A DNA stretch of 45,276 nucleotides from Bacteroidales bacterium (GCA_029938235.1 JAOZVH010000001.1:1-45276); one strand, 5' to 3'. Counted from the stretch's first letter, positions 61 to 45,065 are shown. Numbers and translations are program-made. The notes: generated from the sequence alone by a model not told the origin.

Positions 61-145
61 AATGAAAAACATTAAAATTTTAATGTTTTTAAATTATTAA
101 AAAAAAATTTTTCCAAAAAACGTCAAAATTTTAATGTTTTTTATT
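61..145. repeat. Intergenic ~52-bp AT repeat family, one full and one degenerate unit (CGTC orientation)
   Basis: TTCCAAAAAACGTCAAAATTTTAATG at 111-136 matches the core seen in the other arrays. A degenerate copy GAAAAACATTAAAATTTTAATG lies at 64-85. Confidence 0.7.
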
Positions 146-150
146 TGATT

Positions 151-2283
151 TTAAAAATTAATATTAAAACCAATCAAATAAAGCGCCCCAGTATCATCAG
201 CAAAATTAAATTCTTTCTTTTTATCATTTAAAACATTTCTAATGTTTAAGAACAAAACATTATTTTTATATATTTTGTAAGAAAGTTTTAAATTTATTAT
301 TGCTTTTGGTTCAATAAGGCTTATATCAAAAATATATTCATCATTGTCCTCACTCCTAAATTCCTTATTTTCAGAATATTGACTTCCATAAAAATATAAA
401 TTAGAAAAAATATTAAATTTTTCAAAAGGCAAATAATTTACAATTATTCCACCGTAAAATGATGGAGTATATAAATGTTCTTTATTTATTAAACTATCTC
501 CACGTGGAAAATTATAAACATTTGTATACTGTTGAGTATTAAATATTTTTATTTGTAAATTCTCTTTTACAATAAAATTTAAACTATAAGAAAAACCAAT
601 CTGTTTGGATTTCATATCAATATTTGTATATTGAAAACGTCTTGGAACTTCCACTTGTGTTGGTCCCATTTGTATATTTTGCATCTCTATTAGTTTAACA
701 TCAGAAAAATTTTTCGTTTTATTATAGAAAACTTCAAAATCCAATAAAAATTTATTTGCAATTTTTGTTCTATATCCCATTTCATACATATCCATTTGCA
801 TAAGTTTTAAATTTTCATTTCCAATTAAATACATAGGAAATGGAATTGTTTGCATATCAAAATTAGTATAAAAAGTATAAAGAAAAGGACTGGAATTTGA
901 ACGAGAATAAACTGCCCTAAGAATATTATTTTTATTTATTTTATATGTACTTGCAATTTGATAATTTAAATAATTTTCATCTGGTTTATTATAAATGTCA
1001 AAACGAGCCGAAGCTATAAATCTAAATTTTTCAAAAAAAGTATTTTCTATTCTTAATGTAGGAGCAAGATTTTCTATGTATTTTTCATCTTTTAAAAAGC
1101 CTTCGCCTTTTTCTATATCTATATGTTTCCTATCATCATAAATAGATTTTCTATAAGAAAAACCCGGTCTTATAATTAAATTTTTAATCTTATAATTGTA
1201 TTCAGCATCTAAAGAAAAATTATTTATATCAGACTGAAAACCTGAAGAACCAGTTATAAAATTTTGATCTCCGGATAAAAAATTTGCATTAAGATGAAAA
1301 TCATAAATATCACTGTTCAAATTTATATATCTCGTGTTTGAAGTTCTATTATTCATATATGTCTTTCTTCGTCCCATATGAACAGTTTGAATTTCAGAAT
1401 TTTGCATTCCAAATGACAATTTATTTTTTATAAAATCTGAATGATTATAATAAATAAAACTATTTACTCCAAAATTATCATTTGCAAGATTAATATTTGG
1501 ATGTCTTTCTGCTGTTTCCATAGAGTCTTCTTTTGTTGCATCCAGCGAATAAACATATTCTAATGTAGCATATCTATTTTCTTCAGTAAGAAAATATTCC
1601 TCCTGAAAACGCTCTTTATAATTAAAATTTGCATTTAAACCTCCGCCAAATTTTTCTTTTCTATAATTTAGACTTGCGTCCGCAATTTTAGTATTCAAAC
1701 TTCCAAATTGAAAATTTGAATTTACAGAAAGATCTTCTTTATTCTTATTTTCTTTCATTTTTGTGATAATATTTATCACTCCGGAAACAGCATTTGGACC
1801 ATAAAGCGATGATGATGGCCCTCTAATTATTTCTATTTTTTCTATATCATTTACACTTATTGGAAGAGTTTCCCAAAATGTTCCACCTTGAAAATAATTG
1901 TAAACAACTCTATTATCTATCATCACAAGACTCATAAAGTTTACAGATGATAACAAATTAGAAAATAAATTATCATTTCCTCTTATGTGCATATCGAAAT
2001 TTCCATTTGTTTTCTCTCTAACTATTAATCCAGGAACCATTCTAAATAATTCTGCTATGCTTGTTGCACCAGAACTTTTAATTTCTTTTTCTGTTATGAC
2101 AGAAATTGATAATGGTGATTCTATCATTTTTTCGCTTTTTTTAGAAGCTGTTTCAACTTGCAGATTTATTAAATCTTCAAGAGATAAATCCATTAAATAA
2201 TCCATATTTAAAGAATCTTCCTGAGATTTAATATTGCTGAAAGAAAAAAATGTAATAAAAATAATTGTAAATATTTTTTTCAT
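151..2283 (-). CDS. TonB-dependent outer-membrane receptor
   Basis: 710-aa ORF with a signal peptide (MKKIFTIIFITFFSFSNIKSQ). Plug-domain-like motifs are present (ISVITEKEI, AELFRMVPGL, HIRGN, IEIIRGPSSSLYG). A long beta-barrel-like region ends in a terminal aromatic residue (GFNINF). Confidence 0.85.
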   Translation of the reverse strand: MKKIFTIIFITFFSFSNIKSQEDSLNMDYLMDLSLEDLINLQVETASKKSEKMIESPLSISVITEKEIKSSGATSIAELFRMVPGLIVREKTNGNFDMHIRGNDNLFSNLLSSVNFMSLVMIDNRVVYNYFQGGTFWETLPISVNDIEKIEIIRGPSSSLYGPNAVSGVINIITKMKENKNKEDLSVNSNFQFGSLNTKIADASLNYRKEKFGGGLNANFNYKERFQEEYFLTEENRYATLEYVYSLDATKEDSMETAERHPNINLANDNFGVNSFIYYNHSDFIKNKLSFGMQNSEIQTVHMGRRKTYMNNRTSNTRYINLNSDIYDFHLNANFLSGDQNFITGSSGFQSDINNFSLDAEYNYKIKNLIIRPGFSYRKSIYDDRKHIDIEKGEGFLKDEKYIENLAPTLRIENTFFEKFRFIASARFDIYNKPDENYLNYQIASTYKINKNNILRAVYSRSNSSPFLYTFYTNFDMQTIPFPMYLIGNENLKLMQMDMYEMGYRTKIANKFLLDFEVFYNKTKNFSDVKLIEMQNIQMGPTQVEVPRRFQYTNIDMKSKQIGFSYSLNFIVKENLQIKIFNTQQYTNVYNFPRGDSLINKEHLYTPSFYGGIIVNYLPFEKFNIFSNLYFYGSQYSENKEFRSEDNDEYIFDISLIEPKAIINLKLSYKIYKNNVLFLNIRNVLNDKKKEFNFADDTGALYLIGFNINF

Positions 2284-2340
2284 ATTTTTTTATTAAAATG
2301 TAATTTTTTATTAAGGTATATTTATTTTTTAATGAATAAA

Positions 2341-2600
2341 AAAAAACGGCAATTTTTTAACATTTTTAAATTAAAAATTTTTTTTCAAAAATCGTCCAAA
2401 ATTTCAAATTTTTTAATTTCAAAATAAAAAAAATTTTTTTCAAATTCGTCCAAAATTTTAATGTTTTTTAATTTCAAAATAAAAAAATTTTTTTTTCAAA
2501 ATTCGTCCAAAATTTTAATATTTTTAAAATAAAAAAAAACGTCAAAATTTTAATTTTTAAATTATTAAAAAAAAATGACGTTTTTTTCAAAAAATTTTTT
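2341..2600. repeat. Array of ~6 units of the intergenic AT repeat family; last unit inverted and overlapping the gltX 3' end
   Basis: Cores are CGGC 2347, CGTC 2392, 2447, 2504 and 2540, then an inverted TGACG at 2576-2580. Spacing is 36-57 bp. Confidence 0.8.
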
Positions 2601-6297: not shown

Positions 6298-6320
6298 AAT
6301 TTTTTCAAAATCATTAAAAC

Positions 6321-6352
6321 AAACATTGGTGTTTTAAAAAAAACCAATGTTT
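6321..6352. terminator. Hairpin downstream of the ChaN-like gene (candidate terminator)
   Basis: Perfect 10-bp arms AAACATTGGT (6321-6330) and ACCAATGTTT (6343-6352) flank a 12-nt loop. The hairpin sits 24 nt after the stop at 6297. It is flanked by A/T runs but has no clean 3' U-tract on the + strand. Confidence 0.4.
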
Positions 6353-6354
6353 AA

Positions 6355-6470
6355 AAAAAAAATTTTTCAAAAATCGTCCAAAATTTTAATATTTTTAAAA
6401 TCAAAATAAAAAAAATTTTTTTCAAAAAACGCCGAAATTTTAACATTTTTAAATTTCAAAATAAAAAAAA
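6355..6470. repeat. Two units of the intergenic AT repeat family (CGTC orientation)
   Basis: TTTTTCAAAAATCGTCCAAAATTTTAATA has its core at 6375-6378. TTTTTTTCAAAAAACGCCGAAATTTTAACA has its core at 6430-6433. Confidence 0.8.
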
Positions 6471-6477
6471 ATCAAAA

Positions 6478-7189: not shown

Positions 7190-7525
7190 AATTAAAAAAA
7201 TTCGTAAAATTTTGCCATTTTATCAAAAAATTTTTTTTTTATAATTTAAAATCATTAAAAAATTGACGTTTTTTTCAAAAAAATTTTTTTGATAATTTAA
7301 AATCATTAAAAAATTGACGTTTTTTTCGAAAAAATTTTTTTTTATAATTTATAATCATTAAAAAATTGACGTTTTTTTCAAAAAAAAATTTTTTTGATAA
7401 TTTAAAATCATTAAAATTTGCCGATTTTGAAAAAAAATTTATTTTTAATAAAAAAAAATCATTAAAAAATTGACGTTTTTTTGAAAAAAATTTTTTTTTA
7501 ATAAATTAAAATCGTAAAAAAATTA
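7190..7525. repeat. Array of ~6 tandem units of the intergenic AT repeat family (GACG orientation)
   Basis: The unit is GATAATTTAAAATCATTAAAAAATTGACGTTTTTTTCAAAAAAATTTTTTT. G/C anchors lie at about 7214, 7265, 7316, 7368, 7419 and 7472, giving a 51-53 bp period. A perfect 18-bp palindrome TCAAAAAAATTTTTTTGA lies at 7275-7292. Confidence 0.9.
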
Positions 7526-8266: not shown

Positions 8267-8274
8267 AATTTTTT

Positions 8275-8365
8275 TATAAAATTAAATCATTAAAATTTTG
8301 CCATTTTTTGAAAAAAAAAATCATTAAAAAATTGACGTTTTTTTCAAAAAAAAAATTTTTAAAAT
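8275..8365. repeat. Two units of the intergenic AT repeat family (GACG orientation)
   Basis: AATCATTAAAATTTTGCCATTTTTTGAAAAAAAAAA is followed by TCATTAAAAAATTGACGTTTTTTTCAAAAAAAAAA. Confidence 0.8.
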
Positions 8366-8428
8366 ATAAAAAAATTTATATTTTAAAAATTAGAAAATTC
8401 TTAAAATCAAAAGAAATATATTTATTTA

Positions 8429-11642: not shown

Positions 11643-12959
11643 TTATGATAATCTAAATGTTATCGGAATAGACATTTTTATTTTAACTTTTTCTCCGTTC
11701 TTTTCTCCAGCTTTCCATTTTGAAAATTTAATTACTCTAATTGCTTCTTTTTTAAACCCTGGGGAAACTTCAACTCTACCTTTAAACTTATTTTCTTTTT
11801 CATTAAAAGCAAGAGTTGCTACAATTTCTACATCTATTATACTTCCATCTTTGTCTATCACAAAAGAAACAAATACTTTTTGCTGTAATCCTTCTGCTTT
11901 CTCTTTTTCAGGAAATTTAATGTTTTTTGAAAGAAAAACATTAAAAGCATTATTATCACCTATAAACTTCGGCATCACTTCTGCAGTATTCAAAACAACT
12001 TCTTCTTTAATGTTATTTTTATTATCTCCCTCACTGATAATTTTTGAAGTTTTTGCTTTTTTTGTTTCATTATTTATAACTTCTCCCTCGTCTGAGCATG
12101 CGGAAAATATAAATAAAACAATTAAAACTGGCAAAGCAAATAAAATTTTGAATTTGCTTTTTTCTGAGGACTTAATTTTTGTCATCATAACTAAACGATT
12201 TTTTATTGTTAATTGATTAAAATAATTTGCGATATTGTAATTTGAATAAAAAACTTCTTCCAAAATTAAACGCTTATAAGAAACAGAATTTTTTGTTTTC
12301 TTCAAAACACCGTCATCTGCAAGATATTCATGAACTTCGGAAATGGATTTTTTATACAAATAAATTAATGGATTGAACCAAAAAATAATTTTAAGAACTT
12401 CTAAAAATAATAAATCTAAAGAATGAAATTGTTTAATATGAACTTTTTCATGTAAAACAATTTTGCTTTTTTTGATGTCAGAAAAAATATCTTTAGAAAT
12501 AAATAAATAATTGAAAAATGAAAATGAGGAACTTTTTTTATCTAATAAAACAAAATTTATATTTTTTAATTTTATGACCTTATTTTTATAAATAATTTTT
12601 TTTATAAAAAATATTTCTTTCATTAAAAAGAAAAAAAATATAAAAGAAATCAAAAAATAAATTAAAAATATAATATCAAATTCATTAAAAAAAGCCTCGT
12701 TTTGAGTAAAATTTTTTTTTGAAATATCTATTTCATTTAAATTGAAATTAAAAATATTTTCATTTTCAATGAAAGTTTCAAAATTTAAAAATGGAATTAC
12801 TAGGGAAAATAAGACAGAAAAAATTAAATAAAAACGGTTTAATTTAAAATTTGTTTCGTTTTTTAAAAACAAAAAATAAATCAAATACATAAAAAACAAA
12901 TTTAAAAATAATTTGTATTGATAAATGAAAAAGCCGTTTTCTAAAATAAAATTAAACAT
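11643..12959 (-). CDS. BlaR1/MecR1-like M56 peptidase signal transducer with C-terminal TonB_C-like domain (copy 1)
   Basis: 438-aa ORF with a multi-TM N-terminus and an HExxH motif (HEKVH, nt 12438-12452). The C-terminus is TonB_C-like (MPKFIGDNNAFNVFLSKNIKFPEKEKAEGLQQKVFVSFVIDKDGSI). It overlaps the upstream blaI-like gene by 8 nt. Confidence 0.8.
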   Translation of the reverse strand: MFNFILENGFFIYQYKLFLNLFFMYLIYFLFLKNETNFKLNRFYLIFSVLFSLVIPFLNFETFIENENIFNFNLNEIDISKKNFTQNEAFFNEFDIIFLIYFLISFIFFFFLMKEIFFIKKIIYKNKVIKLKNINFVLLDKKSSSFSFFNYLFISKDIFSDIKKSKIVLHEKVHIKQFHSLDLLFLEVLKIIFWFNPLIYLYKKSISEVHEYLADDGVLKKTKNSVSYKRLILEEVFYSNYNIANYFNQLTIKNRLVMMTKIKSSEKSKFKILFALPVLIVLFIFSACSDEGEVINNETKKAKTSKIISEGDNKNNIKEEVVLNTAEVMPKFIGDNNAFNVFLSKNIKFPEKEKAEGLQQKVFVSFVIDKDGSIIDVEIVATLAFNEKENKFKGRVEVSPGFKKEAIRVIKFSKWKAGEKNGEKVKIKMSIPITFRLS

Positions 12960-13368
12960 TTTTATTGTTTTTTTTTATTTTAATTTCTTTTTCTACCAGT
13001 TTCATTAATTCTTCTAATTCTTTGACATTCAAATCATTTTCCCTAGAAAAAAACGAAAGTAATTGTCCGAAAGAATTGTCAAAATAATTTCCTATAAATT
13101 TTGAAAGAAAATTTTTTGTATAATCTTTTTTTTCAATTAACGGAAAATATTCATGTGTTTTTCCGTAAACTTTATGAGAAACAAAATTTTTCCTTTCCAA
13201 AATTCTTACTATGGTAGAAACTGTATTATATGCTGGTTTAGGCATTTTAAAATGAGAAATTATGTCTTTTACAAATCCTTTTTTTATCTTCCAAAGGATC
13301 TTCATAATTTGTTCTTCAGCTTTTGTTAAGTCTTTTTTAATCATTTTTTTTAATTTAAAATTATGCAA
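12952..13368 (-). CDS. BlaI/MecI/CopY-family winged-helix transcriptional repressor (copy 1)
   Basis: 138-aa ORF. LTKAEEQIMKILW...YNTVSTIVRILERKNFV is typical of the Penicillinase_R family. It sits upstream of an M56 partner and is translationally coupled to it. Confidence 0.85.
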   Translation of the reverse strand: MHNFKLKKMIKKDLTKAEEQIMKILWKIKKGFVKDIISHFKMPKPAYNTVSTIVRILERKNFVSHKVYGKTHEYFPLIEKKDYTKNFLSKFIGNYFDNSFGQLLSFFSRENDLNVKELEELMKLVEKEIKIKKNNKNV

Positions 13369-13381
13369 ATATAAGTCTTTT

Positions 13382-13397
13382 TTAGTTATGCAACTAA
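13382..13397. promoter_or_regulatory. Candidate BlaI-like operator palindrome TTAGTT-ATGC-AACTAA
   Basis: A perfect 6-bp-arm inverted repeat lies 14 bp upstream of the blaI-like start codon at 13368 on the minus strand. A paralogous site lies at 15226-15241. Confidence 0.4.
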
Positions 13398-13404
13398 TTT
13401 TATA

Positions 13405-13537
13405 GTTAATAATTTACGTTTTTTTTTAAAAAAAATTGTAAAGTGTTGATTGTCAAGTGAAAAAATTTAATTATTAAAATTTTGAACGAATTAAAAAAAA
13501 AAATTTTTTAATTTGAAATTTAAAAATATTAAAATTT
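13405..13537. repeat. About 2 units of the intergenic AT repeat family (GACG orientation, degenerate)
   Basis: TAATTTACGTTTTTTTTTAAAAAAAATTG and ATTAAAATTTTGAACGAATTAAAAAAAAAAATTTTTT are both present. Confidence 0.65.
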
Positions 13538-14803
13538 TTATAATCTAAATTTAACACAAAATCCTGTTATAACATTTACGTTTTCCCCATGGTTTCTTGC
13601 AGGGGTAAATTTTAAATTTTTAGTTAATCTAATAGCTTCATTTTTAAATGCCTGAGAAACTTCTACAACACTATCTATTTGATTTTCATTATCTAAATGA
13701 AAAGCTCTAATAACTTTCACATTTTGAACACTACCGTCTTTCCAAACTATAAAACTAAGAAGTACATCGGCTTGTAAACCAGCTTCTTTTTCTTTCTTTG
13801 GATATCTGATGTATTTTTTAAGTTGATCACTAACATAAATAAAACCATCATTTTCCATTTCTTCTGAATACCTTGGTTGTTCTACTTCATCAAGCTGATA
13901 AATTATAGTATTTTTATCTATTATTTTATCGTTTTCTGAGCATGCAGAAAATATAAATAAAACAATTAAAACTGGCAAAGCAAATAAAATTTTGAATTTG
14001 CTTTTTTCTGAGGACTTAATTTTTGTCATCATAACTAAACGATTTTTTATTGTTAATTGATTAAAATAATTTGCGATATTGTAATTTGAATAAAAAACTT
14101 CTTCCAAAATTAAACGCTTATAAGAAACAGAATTTTTTGTTTTCTTCAAAACACCGTCATCTGCAAGATATTCATGAACTTCGGAAATGGATTTTTTATA
14201 CAAATAAATTAATGGATTGAACCAAAAAATAATTTTAAGAACTTCTAAAAATAATAAATCTAAAGAATGAAATTGTTTAATATGAACTTTTTCATGTAAA
14301 ACAATTTTGCTTTTTTTGATGTCAGAAAAAATATCTTTAGAAATAAATAAATAATTGAAAAATGAAAATGAGGAACTTTTTTTATCTAATAAAACAAAAT
14401 TTATATTTTTTAATTTTATGACCTTATTTTTATAAATAATTTTTTTTATAAAAAATATTTCTTTCATTAAAAAGAAAAAAAATATAAAAGAAATCAAAAA
14501 ATAAATTAAAAATATAATATCAAATTCATTAAAAAAAGCCTCGTTTTGAGTAAAATTTTTTTTTGAAATATCTATTTCATTTAAATTGAAATTAAAAATA
14601 TTTTCATTTTCAATGAAAGTTTCAAAATTTAAAAATGGAATTACTAGGGAAAATAAGACAGAAAAAATTAAATAAAAACGGTTTAATTTAAAATTTGTTT
14701 CGTTTTTTAAAAACAAAAAATAAATCAAATACATAAAAAACAAATTTAAAAATAATTTGTATTGATAAATGAAAAAGCCGTTTTCTAAAATAAAATTAAA
14801 CAT
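13538..14803 (-). CDS. BlaR1/MecR1-like M56 peptidase signal transducer with a divergent TonB_C-like C-terminal domain (copy 2)
   Basis: 421-aa ORF whose first ~288 aa are identical to copy 1, including HEKVH at nt 14282-14296. The C-terminal ~130 aa are different but still TonB_C-like (YPKKEKEAGLQADVLLSFIVWKDGSVQNVKVI). Confidence 0.8.
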   Translation of the reverse strand: MFNFILENGFFIYQYKLFLNLFFMYLIYFLFLKNETNFKLNRFYLIFSVLFSLVIPFLNFETFIENENIFNFNLNEIDISKKNFTQNEAFFNEFDIIFLIYFLISFIFFFFLMKEIFFIKKIIYKNKVIKLKNINFVLLDKKSSSFSFFNYLFISKDIFSDIKKSKIVLHEKVHIKQFHSLDLLFLEVLKIIFWFNPLIYLYKKSISEVHEYLADDGVLKKTKNSVSYKRLILEEVFYSNYNIANYFNQLTIKNRLVMMTKIKSSEKSKFKILFALPVLIVLFIFSACSENDKIIDKNTIIYQLDEVEQPRYSEEMENDGFIYVSDQLKKYIRYPKKEKEAGLQADVLLSFIVWKDGSVQNVKVIRAFHLDNENQIDSVVEVSQAFKNEAIRLTKNLKFTPARNHGENVNVITGFCVKFRL

Positions 14804-15254: not shown

Positions 15255-15600
15255 AAATTTAGTTTTTTTTGAAAAAAATTGTAATCTATTGATTATCAGG
15301 TAAAAAAATTTTTTATTAAAATTTTGGACGAATTTGAAAAAAATTTTTTTTTGATTTTGATTTTAAAATTATTAAAATTTTGAACGAATTTAAAAAAAAA
15401 AATTTTTTTTAAAATTTAAAAATTATTAAAATTTTGGACGAATTTGAAAAAAAATTTTTTTTTGATATAAAAAACATTAAAATTTTGGACGAATTTTGAA
15501 AAAAAATTTTTTTATTTTGAAATTAAAAATATTAAAAAAATTGACGTTTTTTCAAAAATTTTTTTTTATTTAAAAAAATTGACATTTTTTTGAAAAAAAT
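15255..15600. repeat. Array of ~7 units of the intergenic AT repeat family (GACG orientation)
   Basis: ATTAAAATTTTGGACGAATTTGAAAAAAATTTTTTTT-type units have anchors at 15327, 15383, 15437, 15488, 15543 and 15581. Confidence 0.9.
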
Positions 15601-15603
15601 ATT

Positions 15604-16383: not shown

Positions 16384-16394
16384 TAATATATTTT

Positions 16395-16940
16395 GATTTA
16401 AAAAATATTAAAATTTTCACGAATTTGAAAAAAATTTTTATTTTGGAATTAAAAAATCTTAAAATTTTCACGTTTTTTGAAAAAAATTTTTTTATTTTCA
16501 AATTAAAAAATCTTAAAATTTTCACGTTTTTTGAAAAAAATTTTTTTATTTTGAAATTAAAAAATCTTAAAATTTTCACGAATTTGAAAAAAATTTTTTT
16601 ATTTTGAAATTAAAAAACATTAAAATTTTGGACGAATTTGAAAAAAATTTTTTTTATTTTTAAATTAAAAGATGTTGAAATTTTGGACGTTTTTTGAAAA
16701 AAATTTTTTTTTATTTGAAATTAAAAAATATTAAAATTTTGGACGATTTTTGAAAAAAATTTTTTATTTAAAATTGAAAAATATTAAAATTTTGGACGAT
16801 TTTTGAAAAAAAAATTTTTTTTATTTTAAAATTAAAAAATATTAAAATTTTGGGCGTTTTTTGAAAAAATTTTTTTTATTTAAAATTAAAATGTTAAATT
16901 TTAATTATTTTTTGAAAAAAAAATTTTTTTATTTATTAAA
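16395..16940. repeat. Largest array, ~10-11 tandem units of the intergenic AT repeat family (GACG orientation)
   Basis: Anchors are CACG at 16418, 16469, 16523 and 16577, GACG at 16631, 16686, 16742 and 16795, and GGCG at 16853. The period is 51-58 bp. There are two sub-blocks, TCTTAAAATTTTCACG units followed by ATTAAAATTTTGGACG units. Confidence 0.92.
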
Positions 16941-22274: not shown

Positions 22275-22680
22275 TAAAAAAATTTTTCAAAAAAAACGAT
22301 ATTTTTTTATAAAAAAAAATTTAAATCAAAAAAAGCAAATGTTTTTCAATATTAAAACGTCTTTTATATATTTTTAATTTTCATATTTATTACATTTGAC
22401 ATTTAAAATCATTAAAATTTTGACATTTTTCCAAAAAAAAAATTTTTTTGATAATTTAAAATCATTAAAAAATATCGTTTTTTTGAAAAAAAAATTTTTT
22501 TGATAATTTAAAATCATTAAAAATTTGACATTTTTTTTGAAAAAAAATTTTTAAAATCATAAAAAAATACCGTTTTTTGAAAAAAAAATTTTTTTTTAAT
22601 TATAAAAAAATGCTGTTTTTTTGAAAAAATTTTTTTTAATTAAAAAATGTCATTTTTTTTCAAATAAAATTCAAAATAAA
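22275..22680. repeat. Array of ~7 units of the intergenic AT repeat family (mostly GACG orientation, degenerate G/C cores)
   Basis: Repeated GATAATTTAAAATCATTAAAA...TTTTTTGAAAAAAAAATTTTTTT units carry the cores TGACAT, TATCG, TGACAT, TACCG, TGCTG and TGTCA. One opposite-orientation unit lies at about 22280-22310. Confidence 0.85.
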
Positions 22681-25814: not shown

Positions 25815-25950
25815 AAAATTTATTGAAAAAAAAATTTTTTTCAAAAAACGTTTAAATTTTTTAATTTTAAATTTGTTTTTTATTTTTAATAAATTAAAAA
25901 ACATTAAAATTTTGGTCATTTTTTGAAAAAAAATTTTTTCATTTTAATAA
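25815..25950. repeat. Head-to-head pair of intergenic AT repeat units
   Basis: TTTTTTTCAAAAAACGTTTAAATTTTTTAAT has its core near 25849. It faces CATTAAAATTTTGGTCATTTTTTGAAAAAAAA, whose core is near 25915. Confidence 0.75.
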
Positions 25951-31368: not shown

Positions 31369-31386
31369 TTTATAAAATTTTAAAAT

Positions 31387-31422: not shown

Positions 31423-31434
31423 ATTTTAAAATTT

Positions 31435-31705
31435 CAATATTAAAAAAATTTTTTCCAAAAAACGCCGAAATTTTACGAATTTATAAAAAAAATTTTCCAA
31501 AAAACGCCAATTTTTTACGAATTTTATAATTTATAAAAAAATTTTTCAAAAAAACATTAATTTTTTTGGTTTGTACAGGTTGAATTTTTTTTTGATAATT
31601 TCAAATCATTAAAATTTGGTCGTTTTTTGAAAAAAATTTTTTTTTGATAATTTCAAATCATTAAAATTTGGTCGTTTTTTGAAAAAAAATTTTTTTTATT
31701 AATAA
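31435..31705. repeat. Convergent block of the intergenic AT repeat family: ~3 units in CGCC orientation, then 2 units in the opposite orientation
   Basis: TTTTCCAAAAAACGCCGAAATTTTACG, TTTTCCAAAAAACGCCAATTTTTTACG and TTTTTCAAAAAAACATTAATTTTTTT come first. Two copies of GATAATTTCAAATCATTAAAATTTGGTCGTTTTTTGAAAAAAA follow. Confidence 0.85.
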
Positions 31706-31712
31706 AAAAAAT

Positions 31713-33848
31713 TTAAATTTTTATTCCCATTAATAAAATATCATCTATTTGAATTTCTTTTCCTTTCCATTTAAAAAATGTTTTTTCCAAAAAATCTTTT
31801 TGCTCACTCATTTTTTCTTTGTGAATTTTCAGTAATAATTTTTTTAATCTCCTTGTTAAAAATTTTCGTCCTTTTGTTCCTCCGAATTGGTCTGGATAAC
31901 CATCAGAAAATAAATAAATTTTATCATTTTTTTCTAAATGAATAATTTCTTTAGAAAAAGGCTTTTCTTTTGGAAAAATTCCTATTGGCATTTTATCTGC
32001 TTTATAATGATTTAATTTACCATCTCTAATTAAATAAATAGGATTATTTGCTCCGGAATATTGCATTTCATGATTTTCAAAATCTATTATACAAAGCGCT
32101 AAATCCATACCATCACTTGCTTCATTTCTTTTTCCTGTTTGATGTAGAGAATTTTTTATTTTGTTTCTCAACTCATTTAAAATTTCATCAGAGTTCAATT
32201 CAAAAATTTTATTTACTATTTCGTTCAAAGACGAAAGTCCAAGCATACTCATAAATGCTCCGGGAACCCCATGTCCTGTACAATCTGCAACCACAATAAT
32301 TATTTTATTATTTTTTTGAGTAACCCAATAAAAATCTCCGGAAACAATATCTTTTGGAAGATACAAAATGAAATTTTCACTTAAAAGACTATTTATTAAA
32401 TTTTGTGGAGATAAAATCGCTGTTTGTATTCTACTTGCATAATGTATGCTGTCAGTAATTTCTTTATTTTGTTTTAAAAGTAAATTTGTTTGCTCTGTAA
32501 TTTCATCTTTTTGAGATAAAATTTCTTCCGTTTTTTGCTCTAATTCTTGGTTCTTATATATAATTTCTTTTTTCTGTATCTCTAAAATTCTATTCGCTTT
32601 CTTTTTTTCTTTAATGTTAAAAAATAAAAAGATTGAAATAACTATCATAAATAATAATGCTACAGAAAAAGAAATTGTGAAATTTCTTAATAAAGAATAT
32701 TCTTTTTCTTGTACTTTTCTTTTTTGTTCATATTTATAAGAAACTTCCATTTGTGTGATTTTTTTATAACTTTCCTTTTGATTTAGTTCATCATCTAAAT
32801 TTTTAAATTTTAAATAATATTCATAAGCTGATTTATAATTTCTTTTATTAGATGAAGCCTTGCTCATAGATTCAAATATACTATGTTTAACTTCAACTAA
32901 ATTTAATTTTTCGGCAATTTTTAAAGATTTTTCAAAAAATTCTATTGCTTCATTATGTTTTTTTTGAATTAAATAAACTTCTCCTATATTATTGTAAGAA
33001 ATAGAAATTCCTTTTTGATAATCTATTTTTTCTTTTTCTTTTATACTTTTATGATAATACTTTATTGATTTCTCATAATCTTTTTTTTCTCTGTAAAGTT
33101 CCCCTATGTTGTTTAATATCAAAGCAGAAAATTTTATATATTTTTTTTTATGTTTAATAATTTCAAGCGCTTTTTCACAAGTTTTTAATGATTTTTCATA
33201 ATTTTTTGTGTACAGATGTATATTTCCAATATTCGCATAAATTACAATCATATCAGATGTGTCTTTTATTTCATAAGCAATTTTTAATGCTTTTTCATAA
33301 TATTCTAAGGATGCATTATAATTTTTTTGTTTTTTATGTAAAATTCCTATATTCCAATAGCTTTTTGAAATACCTTTTTTATTTTTTATTTTTTTATTTA
33401 TTTCTAAAGATTTTAAATAATATTCTAAAGATTTGACATATTCTTTTTTGCCTGATAAGGTTTTTCCTATGTTTGTGTAAGAATCAGCAATTTCTTGCTC
33501 ATCTTCTAATTCTTTTGCTATTTTTAAACTATTAGAATAATAGTTTTCTGCCTGTTGAAATAAACTTTGATGTTTATAAATATGTGCAATATTTTTATAC
33601 GCTATCATTTTACCTTTTTCAAAATCTATTTCCTTTGATAATTTCAAAGCTTTTTCCGCATATTCTAATGCTTTTTCGCTATGCCTATGTCTAAATTTAA
33701 AGGCTGAATTATTTAATGCTCTAACTCTTACAGTATCATCTATTTCATTTATTGTGTCTTTTTGTTTTTCAATACAAAAAATGAAATTTGTAGAAAATAT
33801 TATAAAAGATAAAAAAATAAAAAAAAATTTTTTTTTGAAATAAGGCAT
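31713..33848 (-). CDS. TPR-repeat, single-TM, coiled-coil, PP2C/SpoIIE-family serine phosphatase
   Basis: 711-aa ORF with a signal/anchor, ~8 TPR-like units, a TM (FTISFSVALLFMIVISIFLFF) and a coiled coil. The SpoIIE-type phosphatase motifs are SGDFYW, ADCTGHGVPGAFMS and SDGYPDQFGG. Confidence 0.8.
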   Translation of the reverse strand: MPYFKKKFFFIFLSFIIFSTNFIFCIEKQKDTINEIDDTVRVRALNNSAFKFRHRHSEKALEYAEKALKLSKEIDFEKGKMIAYKNIAHIYKHQSLFQQAENYYSNSLKIAKELEDEQEIADSYTNIGKTLSGKKEYVKSLEYYLKSLEINKKIKNKKGISKSYWNIGILHKKQKNYNASLEYYEKALKIAYEIKDTSDMIVIYANIGNIHLYTKNYEKSLKTCEKALEIIKHKKKYIKFSALILNNIGELYREKKDYEKSIKYYHKSIKEKEKIDYQKGISISYNNIGEVYLIQKKHNEAIEFFEKSLKIAEKLNLVEVKHSIFESMSKASSNKRNYKSAYEYYLKFKNLDDELNQKESYKKITQMEVSYKYEQKRKVQEKEYSLLRNFTISFSVALLFMIVISIFLFFNIKEKKKANRILEIQKKEIIYKNQELEQKTEEILSQKDEITEQTNLLLKQNKEITDSIHYASRIQTAILSPQNLINSLLSENFILYLPKDIVSGDFYWVTQKNNKIIIVVADCTGHGVPGAFMSMLGLSSLNEIVNKIFELNSDEILNELRNKIKNSLHQTGKRNEASDGMDLALCIIDFENHEMQYSGANNPIYLIRDGKLNHYKADKMPIGIFPKEKPFSKEIIHLEKNDKIYLFSDGYPDQFGGTKGRKFLTRRLKKLLLKIHKEKMSEQKDFLEKTFFKWKGKEIQIDDILLMGIKI

Positions 33849-35030: not shown

Positions 35031-35869
35031 AATTTTTTTATTTAAAATAAAAATATAATTTTTTCAAAAATAAAAAAAACATTTAAAAAAAAAAATTCCA
35101 TTAAATTCAAAAAATATATTATTTTTGCTTAAATATTTTGTATTTTTGAAAAAAAATTAAAATTTTATTTTCAAATTTAAAAATCAATTTTATAAAATTA
35201 GATTTAAATACATGTATTTTTTTCATAGACATAAGTTTAATATTAGGATAAAAAATAAAAATTAATGGTTGGCTTAATAATTATTGGGCAAGTAAATTAA
35301 CTTATTTTAATAATTCTAAAGCGGTAAATTTTTTAATTTTAATTAAGTTTATGTTTTTAATATTTTTTTAGAAAATGAATTTTCGTAAAAAAATTACTTT
35401 GTTTCACGAAAATTTGAACGAAAAATTAAATGTAATGTTTCCATTTGCATATAAATCATTTTTTCACATAAAAAATGAAATTTTCACGATAAAAAAAGCA
35501 ATTATTTTGATACAAATTTTAATTATATAATTCAAGATTTTATTATTCCTTTTAATGATAAAATTGATTTTTCAAAATCAAAAAATTATGCTTTCGTTTT
35601 TATCCAAAGGTAGAAATTCAAAAATTGTCAGGTTCTTGGAACCTTTTATGAAATATAAATTTTTTTATTAAAAAAATAATTATTATAATTCATCGTCCAC
35701 GATGATTTCCTTGCATCGTATATAAAGCATTGAATTTAATGTTTTAATGACCATTCGAAATAAAGTTTTTGAAAAATATTTTGAAAAAAAGCGTAAATTT
35801 TTCACATTTTTTTTATGAAAAAAACTATCACCACAAAAAGGTTCTATAGCCATTTTTTTTTATTAATTA

Positions 35870-35915
35870 TAAAAAATCATTAAAATTTCATCGTTTTTTT
35901 GAAAAAATTTTTTTT
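35870..35915. repeat. Single unit of the intergenic AT repeat family abutting a gene 3' end
   Basis: AAAAAATCATTAAAATTTCATCGTTTTTTTGAAAAAATTTTTTTTTT ends at the stop codon (35916-35918) of the minus-strand gene. Confidence 0.7.
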
Positions 35916-38933: not shown

Positions 38934-39100
38934 AAAATTTATGATAAAAAAATTTTTTCAAAAAATACATTTTTTTTATTAAAAAAAATTTTTTTTGAAA
39001 AAAATGAAAATAATTTATATTTTTTTTTTTAAATTTTATAAAAATGTTTTTTAAAAAATATTTTTATTTTTGTATAAAAAAATATTTTAAATTTTGAAAA

Positions 39101-42829: not shown

Positions 42830-43960
42830 GTGAGTTATAAAATATTCACCTTAAAAAAAAAAATTGTGAGAAAAAAGAAAATTTGGTATTTATATCCATT
42901 ATCATTAATTTATGGTTTAATTACAATTATAAGAAATCTTTTATTTGATTTAAAAATTTTACAAAGTAAAACTTTTGAAATACCAATTATTTGTATAGGA
43001 AATATAACTGTTGGAGGAACAGGAAAAACTCCACACACAGAATTTCTAGTAGATTTTTTGCAAGAAGAGTTTAAAATTGCTGTTTTAAGTCGTGGTTACA
43101 AAAGAAAAACATCTGGATTTAAACTGGCAAATGAAAATTCTAAAGTAAATGAAATTGGAGATGAGCCTAAACAAATTTTGAATAAGTTTCCAAAAATTAA
43201 AGTTGCGGTGGATAAAAATAGAATAAGAGGGATAAAAGAACTATTAAAATCTGATAAAGAATTGAAATTAATTTTATTAGATGATGGTTTTCAACACCGT
43301 TATGTAAAAGCTGGTTTAAATATTTTATTAATTGATTATAACAGACTAATTTATGAAGATAATTTTTTACCTTATGGAGAACTCAGAGAAAGTGCAGAAG
43401 AAAGAAAAAGAGCAGAAATAATAATTATTTCAAAAACTCCAAATAATATAAAACCAATAGAACAAAGAATAATCTCTAAAGATTTAAAGTTAAAACCTTA
43501 TCAAGATTTATTCTTTACTTATTTTGAGTATCAAAAAATTGTTCATGTTTTTAATAAAAAAGAAGCAGATTTTAAATTCAAAGAATTAAATATTTTTTTA
43601 ATTACTGGAATAGCAGATAACTTTCAAATAATTAATTATTTACAAAAAAATAATAATATTATAGAACATTTTACATTTGAAGATCATTATTCTTATAAAA
43701 ATAATGATATTGATAAAATTATTTCTAATTATAATGAATTAAAGGAAAATAATGAAAATGGAAAAACAATAATTATAACTACAGAAAAAGATGCAACACG
43801 CTTACAAGATATGGAATATGCAGAAAAATTATCAAAATTGCCAATTTATTATTTACCGATTAATATTAAATTTATAAATAATGATAGGAAAACTTTTAAT
43901 AAAAGAGTTTTCAATTATTTAAGAAAAGTATATAAAGATAAATCATTTTTTAGGCTGTAA
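42830..43960 (+). CDS. lpxK: Tetraacyldisaccharide 4'-kinase
   Basis: The P-loop is GNITVGGTGKTP, followed by LSRGYKRK and DDGFQH. The ORF begins with GTG in the ORF track, so the exact start is uncertain. Confidence 0.88.
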   Translation: MSYKIFTLKKKIVRKKKIWYLYPLSLIYGLITIIRNLLFDLKILQSKTFEIPIICIGNITVGGTGKTPHTEFLVDFLQEEFKIAVLSRGYKRKTSGFKLANENSKVNEIGDEPKQILNKFPKIKVAVDKNRIRGIKELLKSDKELKLILLDDGFQHRYVKAGLNILLIDYNRLIYEDNFLPYGELRESAEERKRAEIIIISKTPNNIKPIEQRIISKDLKLKPYQDLFFTYFEYQKIVHVFNKKEADFKFKELNIFLITGIADNFQIINYLQKNNNIIEHFTFEDHYSYKNNDIDKIISNYNELKENNENGKTIIITTEKDATRLQDMEYAEKLSKLPIYYLPINIKFINNDRKTFNKRVFNYLRKVYKDKSFFRL

Positions 43961-44761
43961 AATCGTTACATTTGGACTGTTTTTTCGTTTATTATTTGGT
44001 TTATTTAAAAAAATAGGATATTTACTTTTTTTCATTATCCAGGAAGCAACACTATCAGTCCACATTTTAGAACTTTCTTTTTTCGGATGTGCACCGTCTT
44101 TATATCTTTTAAAATTTGGATTATTTAATGATATATTTTTTGTGAAAAAAAATTGTGTATCATCTAAGTATTTTTGTATTAAATTATTAATTCCGGTGTC
44201 TTCTTTCCAGTTTGGAGGACCTATCCATACAAATTTTAAACTATCTTTTCCAAGTTGTTTTAAAATATTTTTCACATATTTATCTCGTTTTTTTTCAATA
44301 TTTCTTACAAATAATTCATTCGCACCAAGAACTAAAATAATATAATTTGCATTATATTTATTTATAAAATAGCTTAAAGTATCACAACTTCCAAACCATT
44401 TTGTTTGAGAACTGTACCATATTACAGTTTTTAAATAGTGATTATTTTCTTCGCAATAATCTTTCATTCTTAACATAAAACCTTCCAACATAGAATCTCC
44501 AATTAATAATATTCTTTTTGAAAGACTGTCTAATTCTATAGATTCTTTTTTTATTATGGAATCCTTTTTTACCATTAAAAAAAGAGAATCTATCTTCTTA
44601 TCATTTAAAAATGTAGAAGTAATAATCTCTTTAATTTCTGTTTTTTCTATTTCTACATTAAAAATTTTAATTGTTTTTTCATAAAAAGAATAAATTGTCA
44701 AAGTAGAAAAAACAAAAATCAGAAGAAATATTATTTTCCAGAGCGGAGTGTTTAAATTCAT
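43943..44761 (-). CDS. SGNH/GDSL-family hydrolase with an N-terminal membrane anchor
   Basis: Block I is LLIGDSMLEG, a Gly/Asn block (VLGANE) follows, and block V is DGAHP. The 3' end overlaps the lpxK 3' end by 18 nt. Confidence 0.75.
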   Translation of the reverse strand: MNLNTPLWKIIFLLIFVFSTLTIYSFYEKTIKIFNVEIEKTEIKEIITSTFLNDKKIDSLFLMVKKDSIIKKESIELDSLSKRILLIGDSMLEGFMLRMKDYCEENNHYLKTVIWYSSQTKWFGSCDTLSYFINKYNANYIILVLGANELFVRNIEKKRDKYVKNILKQLGKDSLKFVWIGPPNWKEDTGINNLIQKYLDDTQFFFTKNISLNNPNFKRYKDGAHPKKESSKMWTDSVASWIMKKSKYPIFLNKPNNKRKNSPNVTILQPKK

Positions 44762-44774
44762 AATTTTTATTAAT

Positions 44775-45065
44775 AATTTTTTTCAAAAAATGTCAATTTT
44801 ATAATATTTTTTATAATTAAAAATAAATTTTTTCAAAAAACGTCAAAATTTTCAATATTCTTTTTATAATTAAAAAAAAAAATTTTTCAAAAAACGTTAA
44901 AATTTTCAACATTTTTTATAATTAAAAAAAAACAAATTTCAAAAAACGTCAAAATTTTCAATATTCTTTTTATAATTAAAAAAAAATTTTTTCAAAAAAC
45001 GTCAAAATTTTCAACATTTTTTATAATTAAAAAATTTTTTTTCAAATTCATCCAAAATTTTAAGA
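44775..45065. repeat. Array of ~6 units of the intergenic AT repeat family (CGTC orientation) with an alternating A-B-A-B higher-order structure
   Basis: Anchors are TGTC 44791, CGTC 44841, CGTT 44895, CGTC 44947, CGTC 45000 and CATC 45049. The variants ...TTTTCAATATTCTTTTTATAATT and ...TTTTCAACATTTTTTATAATT alternate. Confidence 0.9.

What the first reader, a model, noticed from the sequence alone, without database searches (positions are those of the whole stretch)
61..45065. Pervasive ~51-56 bp A/T-palindromic repeat family occupies about half of all intergenic DNA
At least 13 intergenic regions carry 1-11 tandem units of one element. I counted about 55-60 units, roughly 3 kb, by eye. The consensus in one orientation is GATAATTTAAAATCATTAAAAAATTGACGTTTTTTTCAAAAAAATTTTTTT. 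Each unit has three parts: (i) an A(n)T(n) palindrome such as TCAAAAAAATTTTTTTGA (7275-7292), (ii) an AAAATTTT block, and (iii) the only G/C island, TTGACG, TTGGACG or TTCACG. Anchor spacing is regular, for example 7265/7316/7368/7419/7472, 16418 to 16853 in 51-58 bp steps, and 44841/44895/44947/45000. Units occur at gene 5' ends, at 3' ends, and between convergent and divergent genes, in both orientations. They are therefore not simply promoters or terminators. They lack unique spacers, so they are not CRISPR, and they encode nothing. I do not recognise the unit as any described REP/BIME/ERIC/MITE family. A repeat of this density in a compact genome suggests either an active spreading mechanism or a structural or regulatory role.
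Basis: seen in the sequence. Interest (0 to 1): 0.8.

Follow-up and report, generated by a model that had tools for sequence, protein, structure and literature searches.

The report
Lineage-specific A/T-rich intergenic minisatellite family
An uncultured, very AT-rich Bacteroidota lineage carries head-to-tail arrays of one roughly 45-55 bp non-coding unit in most of its larger gene spacers; the arrays change fast between close relatives and sit where gene order breaks, so they look like a new bacterial minisatellite family and not a regulatory signal.

Summary
An iterated nhmmer profile finds 47-55 units at 13 sites in the window. At E<=0.01 they cover 39% of its 5.8 kb of intergenic DNA and occur in 10 of 14 spacers of at least 100 bp. 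Core patterns match 7-9 times against 0 in shuffles.

The window belongs to an uncultured Bacteroidota population (22.8% GC; 99.9% identical to GCA_029935755.1). True arrays were found only in this lineage: its ~94% relative 'Bacteroidetes bacterium 4572_128' and low-GC contigs of three metagenomes. A 25%-GC relative (GltX 77% identical) showed none in the one 10.6 kb contig examined.

Tests rejected:
- CRISPR, coding sequence and a Bacteroidota promoter;
- a GC-stem terminator;
- structured RNA (fold z 0.5-1; apparent hairpin covariation 4.82 vs 4.80 in controls);
- REP/BIME.

What the data show:
- Arrays are one-directional and locally homogenised (88% identity within arrays, 77% between).
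- Spacing has two modes, 44-46 and 51-56 bp.
- Arrays are predicted to be intrinsically curved.
- Turnover is rapid (5 vs 17 units at the same locus).
- Every synteny-block end seen against relatives lies in or beside an array.

Best reading: a new family of a known kind, a dispersed minisatellite that behaves like MIRU/VNTR loci, growing by slippage and unequal recombination. An architectural role is not excluded.

The parts
61..141 (-). One good unit (core 100-135) plus a degenerate neighbour, downstream of the TonB-dependent receptor gene (151-2283, minus strand).
   Evidence: nhmmer 27.4 bits; sequence.
2341..2600 (-). Array of 5 minus-oriented units (GGACG type, 54-56 bp) plus one plus-oriented unit (2569-2600) that overlaps the gltX stop. 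It lies between the gltX 3' end and the TonB receptor start.
   Evidence: At the orthologous locus the MAG has 1+17 units of another subtype, and only the two units nearest gltX are conserved.
6352..6471 (-). Two units in the convergent spacer between the ChaN-like gene and the 218-aa gene.
   Evidence: Relatives carry 1 unit (L168) or 4 units (L177), in the opposite orientation and with different neighbours.
7193..7524 (+). Array of 6 units (TTGACG type, 51-52 bp) in a divergent spacer.
   Evidence: In L177 (98.5% identical) the same array is split by a 205-aa ORF.
8268..8367 (+). Two units in the convergent spacer after the PIN-domain gene.
15303..15602 (+). Array of 6 units in the divergent spacer between the blaI-like gene and a 259-aa ORF. 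The last unit abuts the ATG at 15604.
16389..16934 (+). Largest array in the window: 10 units (CACG and GGACG types, 54 bp), starting 6 bp after the stop codon of the upstream gene and ending about 50 bp before the PAS/GAF sensor gene.
   Evidence: TRF 10.1 copies, score 665. The MAG has only 2-3 degenerate units here and a different upstream gene.
22277..22671 (+). One minus-oriented unit next to the glycosyltransferase ATG (22277-22308), then 5 heterogeneous plus-oriented units (22401-22671).
   Evidence: At the same locus the MAG has at least 11 homogeneous units of another subtype.
25828..25939 (.). A pair of units pointing away from each other (25828-25861 minus, 25903-25939 plus) in a divergent spacer.
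   Evidence: Synteny with L173 ends at 25919.
31441..31720 (.). Two minus-oriented units (31443-31517) and two plus-oriented units (31608-31695) in the convergent spacer after the T9SS-tailed giant protein gene.
35867..35915 (+). Solo unit abutting the stop codon of the 1005-aa MFS/acyltransferase gene.
   Evidence: 23.7 bits. Synteny with L175 and L176 ends at 35895.
38953..39006 (-). Degenerate, weak unit-like A/T palindrome. Membership in the family is doubtful.
   Evidence: 12.1 bits only; TRF period 19.
44775..45065 (-). Array of 5-6 units (GACG type, 52-54 bp) upstream of the 272-aa gene (43943-44761, minus strand).
6322..6351 (.). Not part of the family: a degenerate copy of a second repeat, the hairpin AACATTGGTG...CACCAATGTT, directly after the ChaN-like gene and next to the units.

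Best explanation
The units are a lineage-specific, non-coding, A/T-tract minisatellite: a tandem repeat found at many intergenic sites.

Inferred mechanism:
- Arrays grow, shrink and are homogenised locally by slipped-strand mispairing and unequal recombination between head-to-tail units.
- Because hundreds of near-identical arrays lie in different spacers, they also recombine with one another. That moves array segments next to new genes, flips their orientation, deletes or inserts genes between arrays, and breaks gene order.

Shown directly:
- The units carry no detectable sequence-specific signal: no promoter, no terminator, no structured RNA and no ORF.
- They fill the space selection leaves free, from the stop codon of one gene to roughly 40-150 bp before the next start.

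Predicted only: a physical by-product, which may or may not be used by the cell, is that arrays of A/T tracts spaced by eye at about 11 bp, in units of about 45 or 55 bp, are intrinsically curved and very easily melted DNA.
For: Family and periodicity:
- 593 units were found in 370 kb, and only 6 fall in the 75% that codes.
- Arrays of up to 22 units are nearly always one-directional and head-to-tail, with spacing modes at 44-46 and 51-56 bp.

Local homogenisation: identity is 0.886 between adjacent units and 0.876 within an array, against 0.771 between arrays and 0.575 for shuffled units.

Rapid turnover at orthologous loci in genomes 93-98.5% identical:
- 3' of gltX: 1+5 units in the window against 1+17 of another subtype in the MAG, with only the two gene-proximal units shared.
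- 5' of the glycosyltransferase gene: 5 heterogeneous units against at least 11 homogeneous ones.
- 5' of the PAS/GAF gene: 10 units against 2-3 degenerate ones.
- 3' of the 218-aa gene: 2 units in one orientation against 4 in the other.
- A 205-aa ORF lies between two same-direction array halves in L177, where the window has one continuous array.

Rearrangement: every synteny-block end observed lies in or within about 50 bp of a unit. These are window positions 2340, 6303-6311, 15351, 16806, 22495-22647, 25919, 35895 and 44880+.

Absence of specific signals:
- No Rfam match.
- RNA folding is no better than shuffles: z +0.5 to +1.0 for five of six sequences, -0.18 for one unit and -1.4 for one dimer.
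- Hairpin complementarity is not above the shuffled-partner control: 4.82 vs 4.80 +/- 0.03.
- None of the 5 promoter-consensus matches in the window lies in an array.
- Units occur in convergent, tandem and divergent spacers.
- Orientation relative to genes is biased but not fixed: 140 co-directional against 54 opposite units.

Lineage restriction:
- 47 of 51 genome hits come from one MAG.
- True arrays occur only in low-GC contigs of three metagenomes.
- The 77%-GltX relative's 10.6 kb contig has none, and viral contigs have none.

Curvature: the end-to-end/contour ratio is 0.77-0.86 for arrays against 0.88-0.97 for four kinds of control, under three wedge models.
Against: - Slippage and ectopic recombination are inferred from patterns, not observed.
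- Most comparisons rest on short-read metagenome assemblies, which can collapse or mis-join tandem arrays. One scaffold has an N-gap inside an array, so absolute copy numbers are uncertain.
- Breakpoints in arrays are partly expected by chance, since 10 of 14 larger spacers carry units: (10/14)^6 is about 0.13.
- The unit architecture is kept across diverged subtypes in DNA that is otherwise 11.6% GC: the terminal CG of the island, the G/C between the T-run and A-run, and the two length classes that differ by about 10 bp. This could mean selection on the units and not mere tolerance.
- How the first unit reaches a new spacer is not explained by slippage alone.
Confidence: 0.55

Rival explanations
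1. The arrays are selected architectural DNA. Phased A/T tracts would make each array a curved or superhelical segment that binds a nucleoid-associated protein. Alternatively it would act as a topological or transcriptional insulator between neighbouring transcription units in a genome whose spacers are otherwise featureless at about 12% GC.
For: - Arrays are predicted to be more curved than shuffled arrays, shuffled-unit tandems, other spacers and coding DNA under three models.
- The strongest AA/TT periodicity in arrays is at 10.5-10.75 bp.
- Spacing modes at 44-46 and 51-56 bp differ by about one helical turn: the short class lacks ATTTTGAAATT.
- The tract layout and G/C punctuation are conserved across subtypes, whereas the island sequence itself varies.
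- Arrays are most frequent in convergent spacers (59%).
- They tolerate either orientation, as expected for a shape signal.
- A-tract phasing linked to curvature is documented in prokaryotes (PMC3940949, PMC3431218, PMC516772).
Against: - The model parameters were recalled from memory, and the effect is only about 1-1.5 SD of the arrays.
- The periodicity peak is weak (power 1.5).
- Unit lengths vary continuously from 51 to 57 bp because of homopolymer length, so phasing is not sharply tuned.
- Orthologous arrays differ greatly in copy number, subtype and even presence between genomes 94-98.5% identical. That is unlike a conserved functional site.
- No binding protein is known.
Confidence: 0.2
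2. The unit is a non-autonomous mobile element, analogous to REP or MITE elements. A transposase encoded elsewhere in the genome would copy it to new spacers, for example a RAYT/IS200-type Y1 enzyme acting on single-stranded hairpins, and arrays would then arise secondarily.
For: - Units occur at hundreds of dispersed sites, including 37 solo units with fairly sharp limits.
- Each unit holds nested A-run/T-run palindromes able to form hairpins in single-stranded DNA.
- An IS605-family tnpB is present in the lineage (L174 9736-10587).
- Dispersal to new spacers is otherwise unexplained.
Against: - There are no terminal inverted repeats beyond A/T runs, no recognisable target-site duplication and no conserved GTAG-like head.
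- Units are head-to-tail and not in inverted pairs.
- Hairpin arms show no compensatory variation.
- No Y1 transposase appears among the called genes of the loci fetched.
- The tnpB copy has no units next to it.
- My first guess that the duplicated ORF pairs at 11643-15212 were IS200/IS605 was wrong: they are blaR1/blaI-like.
Confidence: 0.12
3. The units work at the RNA level, as weak all-A/U hairpin terminators or transcript stabilisers. Stacked in arrays, they would stop read-through in either direction.
For: - In both orientations each unit reads A-run, loop, U-run.
- Many arrays begin 0-25 bp after a stop codon.
- Frequency is highest in convergent spacers.
Against: - Hairpins are only -3.3 to -3.9 kcal/mol and no more stable than dinucleotide shuffles (z +0.5 to +0.8 for the TTGACG-type unit on both strands and the GGACG-type unit on the plus strand, -0.18 for that unit's minus strand).
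- The terminator scan finds none in arrays.
- Units are also common in divergent spacers (34%) and directly upstream of start codons.
- A separate GC-containing hairpin repeat followed by a T-run looks like the real terminator type in this lineage.
Confidence: 0.06
4. The arrays are an artefact of short-read metagenome assembly of low-complexity A/T DNA.
For: - Some relatives' contigs end in arrays, and one scaffold has an N-gap inside an array.
- Homopolymer lengths vary from unit to unit.
Against: - The same loci with the same unit count recur in independent assemblies: L052 is 99.94% identical with 17 of 17 units, and L053 and L054 agree.
- Related arrays occur in a MAG from a different study and in several metagenomes.
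- Units within an array differ by point changes in a way assemblers do not invent.
Confidence: 0.02

Closest known systems
MIRU / VNTR loci of Mycobacterium tuberculosis (mycobacterial interspersed repetitive units; from my own knowledge of Supply et al. 1997 and 2000)
   Same: - Direct head-to-tail repeats of about 40-100 bp, scattered over many intergenic spacers of one lineage.
- Copy number differs between close strains.
- Presumably driven by slippage and recombination.
- No cognate transposase.
   Different: - No sequence similarity.
- MIRUs are GC-rich and sit inside operons, with small ORFs overlapping the flanking stop and start codons. Here the units are about 90% A/T, show no multiple-of-3 length preference and occur in all spacer types.
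- Density is far higher: more than 1 unit per kb and 39% of spacer DNA, against 41 loci in a 4.4 Mb genome.
REP / BIME / REPIN elements with RAYT transposases (E. coli, Pseudomonas)
   Same: Short, abundant, strictly extragenic repeats with internal dyad symmetry. They are often clustered and are known to be sites of rearrangement.
   Different: - REPs are GC-stem imperfect palindromes with a conserved GTAG-like head, arranged in alternating or inverted orientation and linked to RAYT genes.
- Here the only dyads are A-run/T-run, arm complementarity is no better than a shuffled-partner control, units are head-to-tail, and no RAYT gene was seen.
Phased A-tract (about 10-11 bp) periodicity and intrinsically bent DNA in prokaryotic genomes (PMC3940949, PMC3431218, PMC516772)
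   Same: A/T tracts recur at roughly helical spacing, are concentrated in non-coding DNA, and give predicted curvature.
   Different: The known signal is a diffuse statistical bias. Here it is carried by a discrete, amplified repeat unit, and the periodicity peak itself is weak.
CRISPR arrays
   Same: Regularly spaced short repeats in non-coding DNA.
   Different: There are no unique spacers, since units abut one another. Arrays occur at many sites of the window instead of one or a few loci. No cas genes are seen in the window.
Wolbachia and other endosymbiont intergenic VNTRs (periods of about 105-141 bp; from my own knowledge)
   Same: AT-rich intergenic tandem repeats that vary between close strains.
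   Different: Those are a handful of loci with locus-specific units, not one family shared by most spacers.

Membership tests
REP/BIME (REPIN-RAYT system) | Imperfect palindrome whose arms pair. Pairing is maintained across copies and stems are usually GC-containing. | tested here: not met
   Only A-run/T-run complementarity is present. The within-unit best stem is 4.82 against 4.80 +/- 0.03 when arms are paired between random units. Fold z is +0.5 to +1.0 for five of the six sequences folded.
REP/BIME (REPIN-RAYT system) | Conserved GTAG-like tetranucleotide at the 5' end, with copies in inverted or alternating orientation. | tested here: not met
   There is no such head in the consensus. Arrays are one-directional and head-to-tail.
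REP/BIME (REPIN-RAYT system) | A RAYT (Y1 transposase) gene in the genome, flanked by the repeats. | tested here: inconclusive
   No Y1_Tnp appears among the Pfam calls of genes in the fetched loci or among the window ORFs scanned. The whole genome could not be scanned.
MITE | Terminal inverted repeats and target-site duplications flanking single insertions. | tested here: inconclusive
   The flanks of 37 solo units show no TIR beyond A/T runs and no recognisable duplication. In about 88% A/T DNA a short duplication could not be seen, and no clean filled-versus-empty site was found.
CRISPR | Repeats separated by unique spacers of similar length, with cas genes nearby. | tested here: not met
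   Successive units abut at 44-56 bp with no unique sequence between them. No cas domains appear in the window ORFs.
MIRU-type dispersed minisatellite (behavioural class) | Direct tandem repeats of 40-100 bp at many intergenic loci of one lineage. | tested here: met
MIRU-type dispersed minisatellite (behavioural class) | Copy number at a given locus differs between closely related genomes. | tested here: met
   5 vs 17 units, 5 vs at least 11, 10 vs 2-3, and 2 vs 4 at orthologous loci. All come from short-read assemblies.
MIRU proper (Mycobacterium) | Sequence homology to MIRU units, and small ORFs in the units that overlap the flanking genes' stop and start codons. | tested here: not met
   Homology was not formally searched; the units are about 90% A/T, whereas MIRUs are GC-rich. 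Unit lengths of 51, 52, 53, 54, 55 and 56 bp occur 33, 39, 45, 47, 44 and 46 times, with no multiple-of-3 preference.
Intrinsic (Rho-independent) terminator | Stable GC-containing stem-loop followed by a U-tract. | tested here: not met
   No terminator-like site lies in the arrays in 15000-32000. Unit hairpins are -3.3 to -3.9 kcal/mol, no better than shuffles.
Bacteroidota sigma-A promoter | TTTG at -33 and TAnnTTTG at -7, with 17-21 bp between them. | tested here: not met
   There are 5 matches in the window (5.8 expected), none in an array. Units are also frequent in convergent spacers.
Any Rfam RNA family | Covariance-model match at or near the gathering score. | tested here: not met
   No hits at gathering threshold over the window. 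In 15200-17000 at E<=1 the only hit lies outside the arrays.

The most novel reading that the evidence does not exclude
The arrays are not junk. They would be a selected genome-architecture device peculiar to this ultra-AT-rich lineage. Amplifiable cassettes of helically phased A/T tracts would form curved or superhelical DNA between genes. These would recruit a nucleoid protein or absorb supercoils, insulating neighbouring transcription units. Their copy number would be tuned quickly by slippage. Alternatively, they would be mobilised by a transposition mechanism not yet described.
Probability: 0.15. Interest if true: 0.7.

Novelty: new member of a known kind. Interest (0 to 1): 0.42.

Why it matters
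If the main reading is right, this lineage is an unusually clear natural case of one minisatellite family taking over bacterial spacer DNA. In the window the family exceeds 1 unit per kb and covers about 40% of intergenic DNA. It coincides with the points where gene order differs between genomes only 2-6% apart.

Practical consequences:
- The arrays explain why some assemblies of this group break or carry gaps at these spacers.
- They offer ready-made VNTR markers for strain tracking in the source sediments.
- Annotators should not call ORFs or promoters in these arrays.

Conceptually, the finding gives a test bed for whether phased A-tract DNA in bacteria is selected or is a by-product of AT-biased mutation plus slippage. 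It does not by itself reveal a new molecular mechanism.

Tried and rejected
1. IS200/IS605 origin. The duplicated 438-aa + 138-aa ORF pairs (11643-13368 and 13538-15212) looked like tnpB + tnpA. Pfam shows BlaR1 M56 peptidase/TonB_C plus a BlaI-type repressor instead. Rejected.

2. Conserved hairpin with a G/C loop. By eye, AAAATT..AATTTT, AAAAT..ATTTT and AAAAAA..TTTTTT looked like compensatory change. On 497 units, the within-unit stem length equals that of randomly re-paired arms (4.82 vs 4.80). Rejected.

3. Structured RNA or terminator. Folding z-scores are not negative, the terminator scan finds nothing in arrays, and Rfam gives nothing.

4. Promoters. The sigma-70-type scan is not enriched (141 sites against 130 +/- 11), and the Bacteroidota consensus is absent from arrays.

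5. Fixed orientation rule. My early impression that units always point toward the adjacent gene did not hold across 68 spacers. Only a 72% co-directional bias remains.

6. Phage or plasmid origin. The giant ORF has no phage match, the largest array has no plasmid match, and viral contigs give only single chance pattern matches.

7. Literature. Searches for the MAG name and the assembly accessions found nothing relevant.

8. Exact-protein look-up of the window's GltX ORF failed at first. Homologue and cluster look-ups succeeded.

9. Copy-number comparison of L168 with L169 was abandoned, because L169 has an N-gap inside the array.

Full report
OBSERVATION

The window is 22.8% GC. Coding DNA is 24.5% GC and intergenic DNA only 11.6%.

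An nhmmer profile, seeded from five units and iterated three times, converges on a 38-position core: ATTAAAATTTTGACGTTTTTTTGAAAAAAATTTTTTTT. It finds 55 hits at E<=0.01 in 13 spacers when the window is searched alone, and 47 when it is searched together with the loci. Two degenerate core patterns match 7 and 9 times against 0.00 in 100 dinucleotide-preserving shuffles.

Units cover 2.27 kb of intergenic DNA, which is 39% of the window's 5831 intergenic bases. They are present in 10 of 14 spacers of at least 100 bp.

WHERE THE WINDOW COMES FROM

The genes are ordinary bacterial genes of Bacteroidota type:
- a TonB-dependent receptor;
- GltX;
- a T9SS C-terminal sorting domain on a 1788-aa protein;
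- a sigma-54 activator;
- a PAS/GAF sensor;
- MlaE/MlaF and LpxK.

There are no tRNAs and no Rfam hits.

A scan of 185,579 species-representative genomes with the core pattern returned 51 loci. Of these, 47 come from one MAG, 'Bacteroidetes bacterium 4572_128' (NBLL01). The other four are single matches with no profile hit, so they are chance.

The window is not that MAG. It is about 94% identical to it in shared genes. It is 99.94% identical over 14.1 kb to GCA_029935755.1 contig JAPOGX010000280.1, with all 17 units in the same places. A still closer relative of another assembly, GCA_029934155.1, is 98.5% identical.

In the metagenome collection, true arrays (at least 2 profile hits) occur in 61 contigs. 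All are low in GC, and all those with listed names belong to three metagenomes (Ga0190283, Ga0164315, Ga0190358). The remaining 51 loci are mostly chance single pattern matches, although 9 of them, nearly all low-GC, carry one profile hit. Viral contigs hold only single chance matches, and plasmids hold none.

The nearest more distant relative I could fetch has GltX 77% identical and 24.9% GC. Its one 10.6 kb contig has no unit and no comparable tandem repeat. The family therefore appears specific to one narrow lineage.

ANATOMY

Pooling the window with the 47 MAG loci (370 kb) gives 593 units, of which only 6 lie in the 75% that codes.

- Arrangement. Units abut head-to-tail with no unique spacers. 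Arrays reach 22 units and are almost always one-directional.
- Spacing. There are two modes, 44-46 bp and 51-56 bp. The short class lacks the segment ATTTTGAAATT, about one helical turn.
- Coding. Lengths of 51-57 bp are about equally common, so there is no multiple-of-3 signature.
- Layout. The unit is a run of alternating A- and T-tracts punctuated by a few G/C positions: A4-6 T2-4, the island, T6, G or C, A7, T8, then a linker.
- Island. It varies (GGACG 112, GGCG 88, GACG 51, GCCG 38, GGGCG 30, CACG 28 and others) but nearly always ends in CG.
- Homogenisation. Adjacent units are 88.6% identical and units within an array 87.6%, against 77.1% between arrays and 57.5% for shuffled units. Arrays are therefore homogenised locally.

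WHAT IT IS NOT

- CRISPR. There are no spacers and no cas genes.
- Coding sequence. See the length distribution above.
- Promoters. Units occur in 59% of convergent spacers, 39% of tandem spacers and 34% of divergent spacers. The Bacteroidota consensus TTTG-N17-21-TAnnTTTG has 5 matches in the window (5.8 expected), none in an array. The sigma-70-type scan is not enriched.
- Classical terminators or structured RNAs. Unit hairpins are all-A/U, at -3.3 to -3.9 kcal/mol. Their z-scores against shuffles are +0.5 to +1.0 for five of the six sequences folded; one unit gave -0.18 and one dimer -1.4. No GC-stem terminator lies in the arrays.
- A conserved hairpin. I thought I saw compensatory changes in a hairpin whose loop is the G/C island. 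On 497 units, the best stem within a unit (4.82 bp) equals that obtained when left and right arms are paired between random units (4.80 +/- 0.03). The complementarity is simply A-run against T-run.
- IS200/IS605. The duplicated ORF pairs next to one array are blaR1/blaI-like, not IS200/IS605.
- A strictly oriented element. Orientation relative to genes is biased (140 co-directional against 54 opposite units in tandem-gene spacers) but not fixed.

DYNAMICS

Orthologous loci were recovered through homologue and cluster look-ups.

1. 3' of gltX. The window has one minus-oriented and five plus-oriented units. The MAG has one and seventeen, of another subtype. Only the two units nearest gltX are shared, and the next gene differs.
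2. 5' of the glycosyltransferase gene (21069-22274). The window has five heterogeneous units. The MAG has at least eleven near-identical units of another subtype.
3. 5' of the PAS/GAF gene. The window has ten units and the MAG two or three degenerate ones, with a different upstream gene. The last ~50 bp before the ATG are conserved, so the real promoter presumably lies there.
4. The 98.5% relative L177. A 205-aa ORF with its own leader sits between two same-direction array halves, where the window has one uninterrupted six-unit array. This is the pattern expected from deletion or insertion by recombination between direct repeats.
5. 3' of the 218-aa gene. The window has two units in one orientation. 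L177 has four in the other orientation and a different neighbour.

Every synteny-block end seen between the window and its relatives lies in a unit or within about 50 bp of one. The window positions are 2340, 6303-6311, 15351, 16806, 22495-22647, 25919, 35895 and 44880+. About six of these are genuine changes of neighbour, and the rest are contig ends.

Two caveats apply. Most larger spacers carry units, so this coincidence is only suggestive: (10/14)^6 is about 0.13. All copy numbers come from short-read assemblies, and one scaffold has an N-gap inside an array.

PHYSICAL PROPERTIES (predicted only)

By eye, tract centres recur about every 11 bp along the unit. The strongest AA/TT periodicity in arrays is at 10.5-10.75 bp, but it is weak.

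I implemented three dinucleotide wedge models (Bolshoy-Trifonov, De Santis, AA-wedge). The parameters were recalled from memory and should be checked. For arrays of at least 230 bp, the smoothed end-to-end/contour ratio over 210 bp is 0.77, 0.86 and 0.77 under the three models. The controls give:
- 0.90-0.95 for shuffled arrays;
- 0.88-0.97 for tandems of shuffled units;
- 0.88-0.92 for repeat-free spacers;
- 0.90-0.93 for coding DNA.

The arrays are thus predicted to be intrinsically curved, in line with published work on phased A-tracts in prokaryotes (PMC3940949, PMC3431218, PMC516772).

INTERPRETATION

The best-supported account is a lineage-specific A/T-tract minisatellite family.

- Shown: dispersal restricted to non-coding DNA; head-to-tail structure; local homogenisation; large differences at orthologous loci; coincidence with rearrangement junctions; absence of the tested regulatory or RNA signatures.
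- Inferred: growth by slippage and unequal recombination; spread and rearrangement by recombination between arrays.
- Left open: how a first unit seeds a new spacer; whether the conserved tract layout, the G/C punctuation and the two length classes reflect selection for DNA shape (the architectural rival, about 0.2); whether an unseen transposase is involved (about 0.12).

COMPARISON AND NOVELTY

In behaviour the closest known systems are the mycobacterial MIRU/VNTR loci. It is not a MIRU: composition is opposite and there is no ORF coupling. It fails the defining features of REP/BIME, CRISPR, terminators, Bacteroidota promoters and Rfam families. MITE features were inconclusive.

I rate it a new family of a known kind. 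It is notable for its density and its all-A/T-tract design, but it does not reveal a new mechanism. Interest 0.42. The most novel reading still open is selected architectural DNA or a new mobilisation mechanism, at a probability of about 0.15.

Noticed in passing
window 6322-6351; MAG loci e.g. L012 2461-2494, L025 6423-6640, L024 250-513: A second repeat family. The hairpin AACATTGGAGGTT-N8-AACCTCCAATGTT is often followed by a T-run and often lies directly beside the A/T units. It has exact arm matches in 17 of 51 loci. The window has one degenerate copy, right after the ChaN-like gene. It looks like the lineage's real terminator-type or REP-like element.
   Followed up: partly
window 11643-13368 and 13538-15212: Tandem duplication of a blaR1-like (M56 peptidase + TonB_C) and blaI-like (Penicillinase_R) gene pair. 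The copies are about 97-98% identical, and the duplication is also present in L052 and L177.
   Followed up: partly
window 19448-19681 (inside the PAS/GAF sensor ORF 16985-19711): An in-frame 105 bp (35-aa) tandem repeat of 2.2 copies. The MAG orthologue is 870 aa against 908 aa, and the alignment to L044 shows the offset here, so the coding repeat also varies in copy number.
   Followed up: partly
L177 8279-8896 (GCA_029934155.1); absent from window 7193-7524: A 205-aa ORF sits inside the repeat array in a 98.5% identical relative. It has a coiled-coil N-terminus and a weak PD-(D/E)XK nuclease-like match (PF07788, E=0.12, below threshold).
   Followed up: partly
L174 9736-10587 and L173 11103-12570, against window 24615-24729: Relatives carry a roughly 1.5 kb insertion between the glycosyltransferase and mlaE genes. 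It contains an IS605-family tnpB (OrfB_IS605 + Cas12f1-like TNB; 283 aa in L174, a remnant in the MAG). The window has only a 115 bp spacer there, and no A/T units adjoin the insertion.
   Followed up: partly
L168 9465-10888: In the MAG 4572_128 contig, gltX is called as two ORFs (174 + 295 aa), whereas it is intact (509-523 aa) in the window and other assemblies. This is either a frameshift or an assembly error.
   Followed up: no
whole window: The composition is extreme for a genome with a free-living-type gene set (T9SS cargo, TonB receptors, a sigma-54 activator, a PAS/GAF sensor, a SpoIIE phosphatase). Overall GC is 22.8% and spacer GC 11.6%. Convergent spacers are the longest class (median 344 bp), the reverse of the usual bacterial pattern.
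   Followed up: partly
window 16256-16579 (minus strand): A 107-aa GTG-start ORF runs through the largest array. It is a by-product of 54 bp units keeping a frame open and should not be annotated as a gene.
   Followed up: no
L055 2236-2345: The 77%-GltX relative, which lacks the A/T units, has a long GC-containing inverted repeat downstream of gltX (TCCGTGT..ATCAGTTGTATCCGTGTCATCAG / CTGATGACACGGATACAACTGAT). It is a different kind of extragenic palindrome.
   Followed up: no
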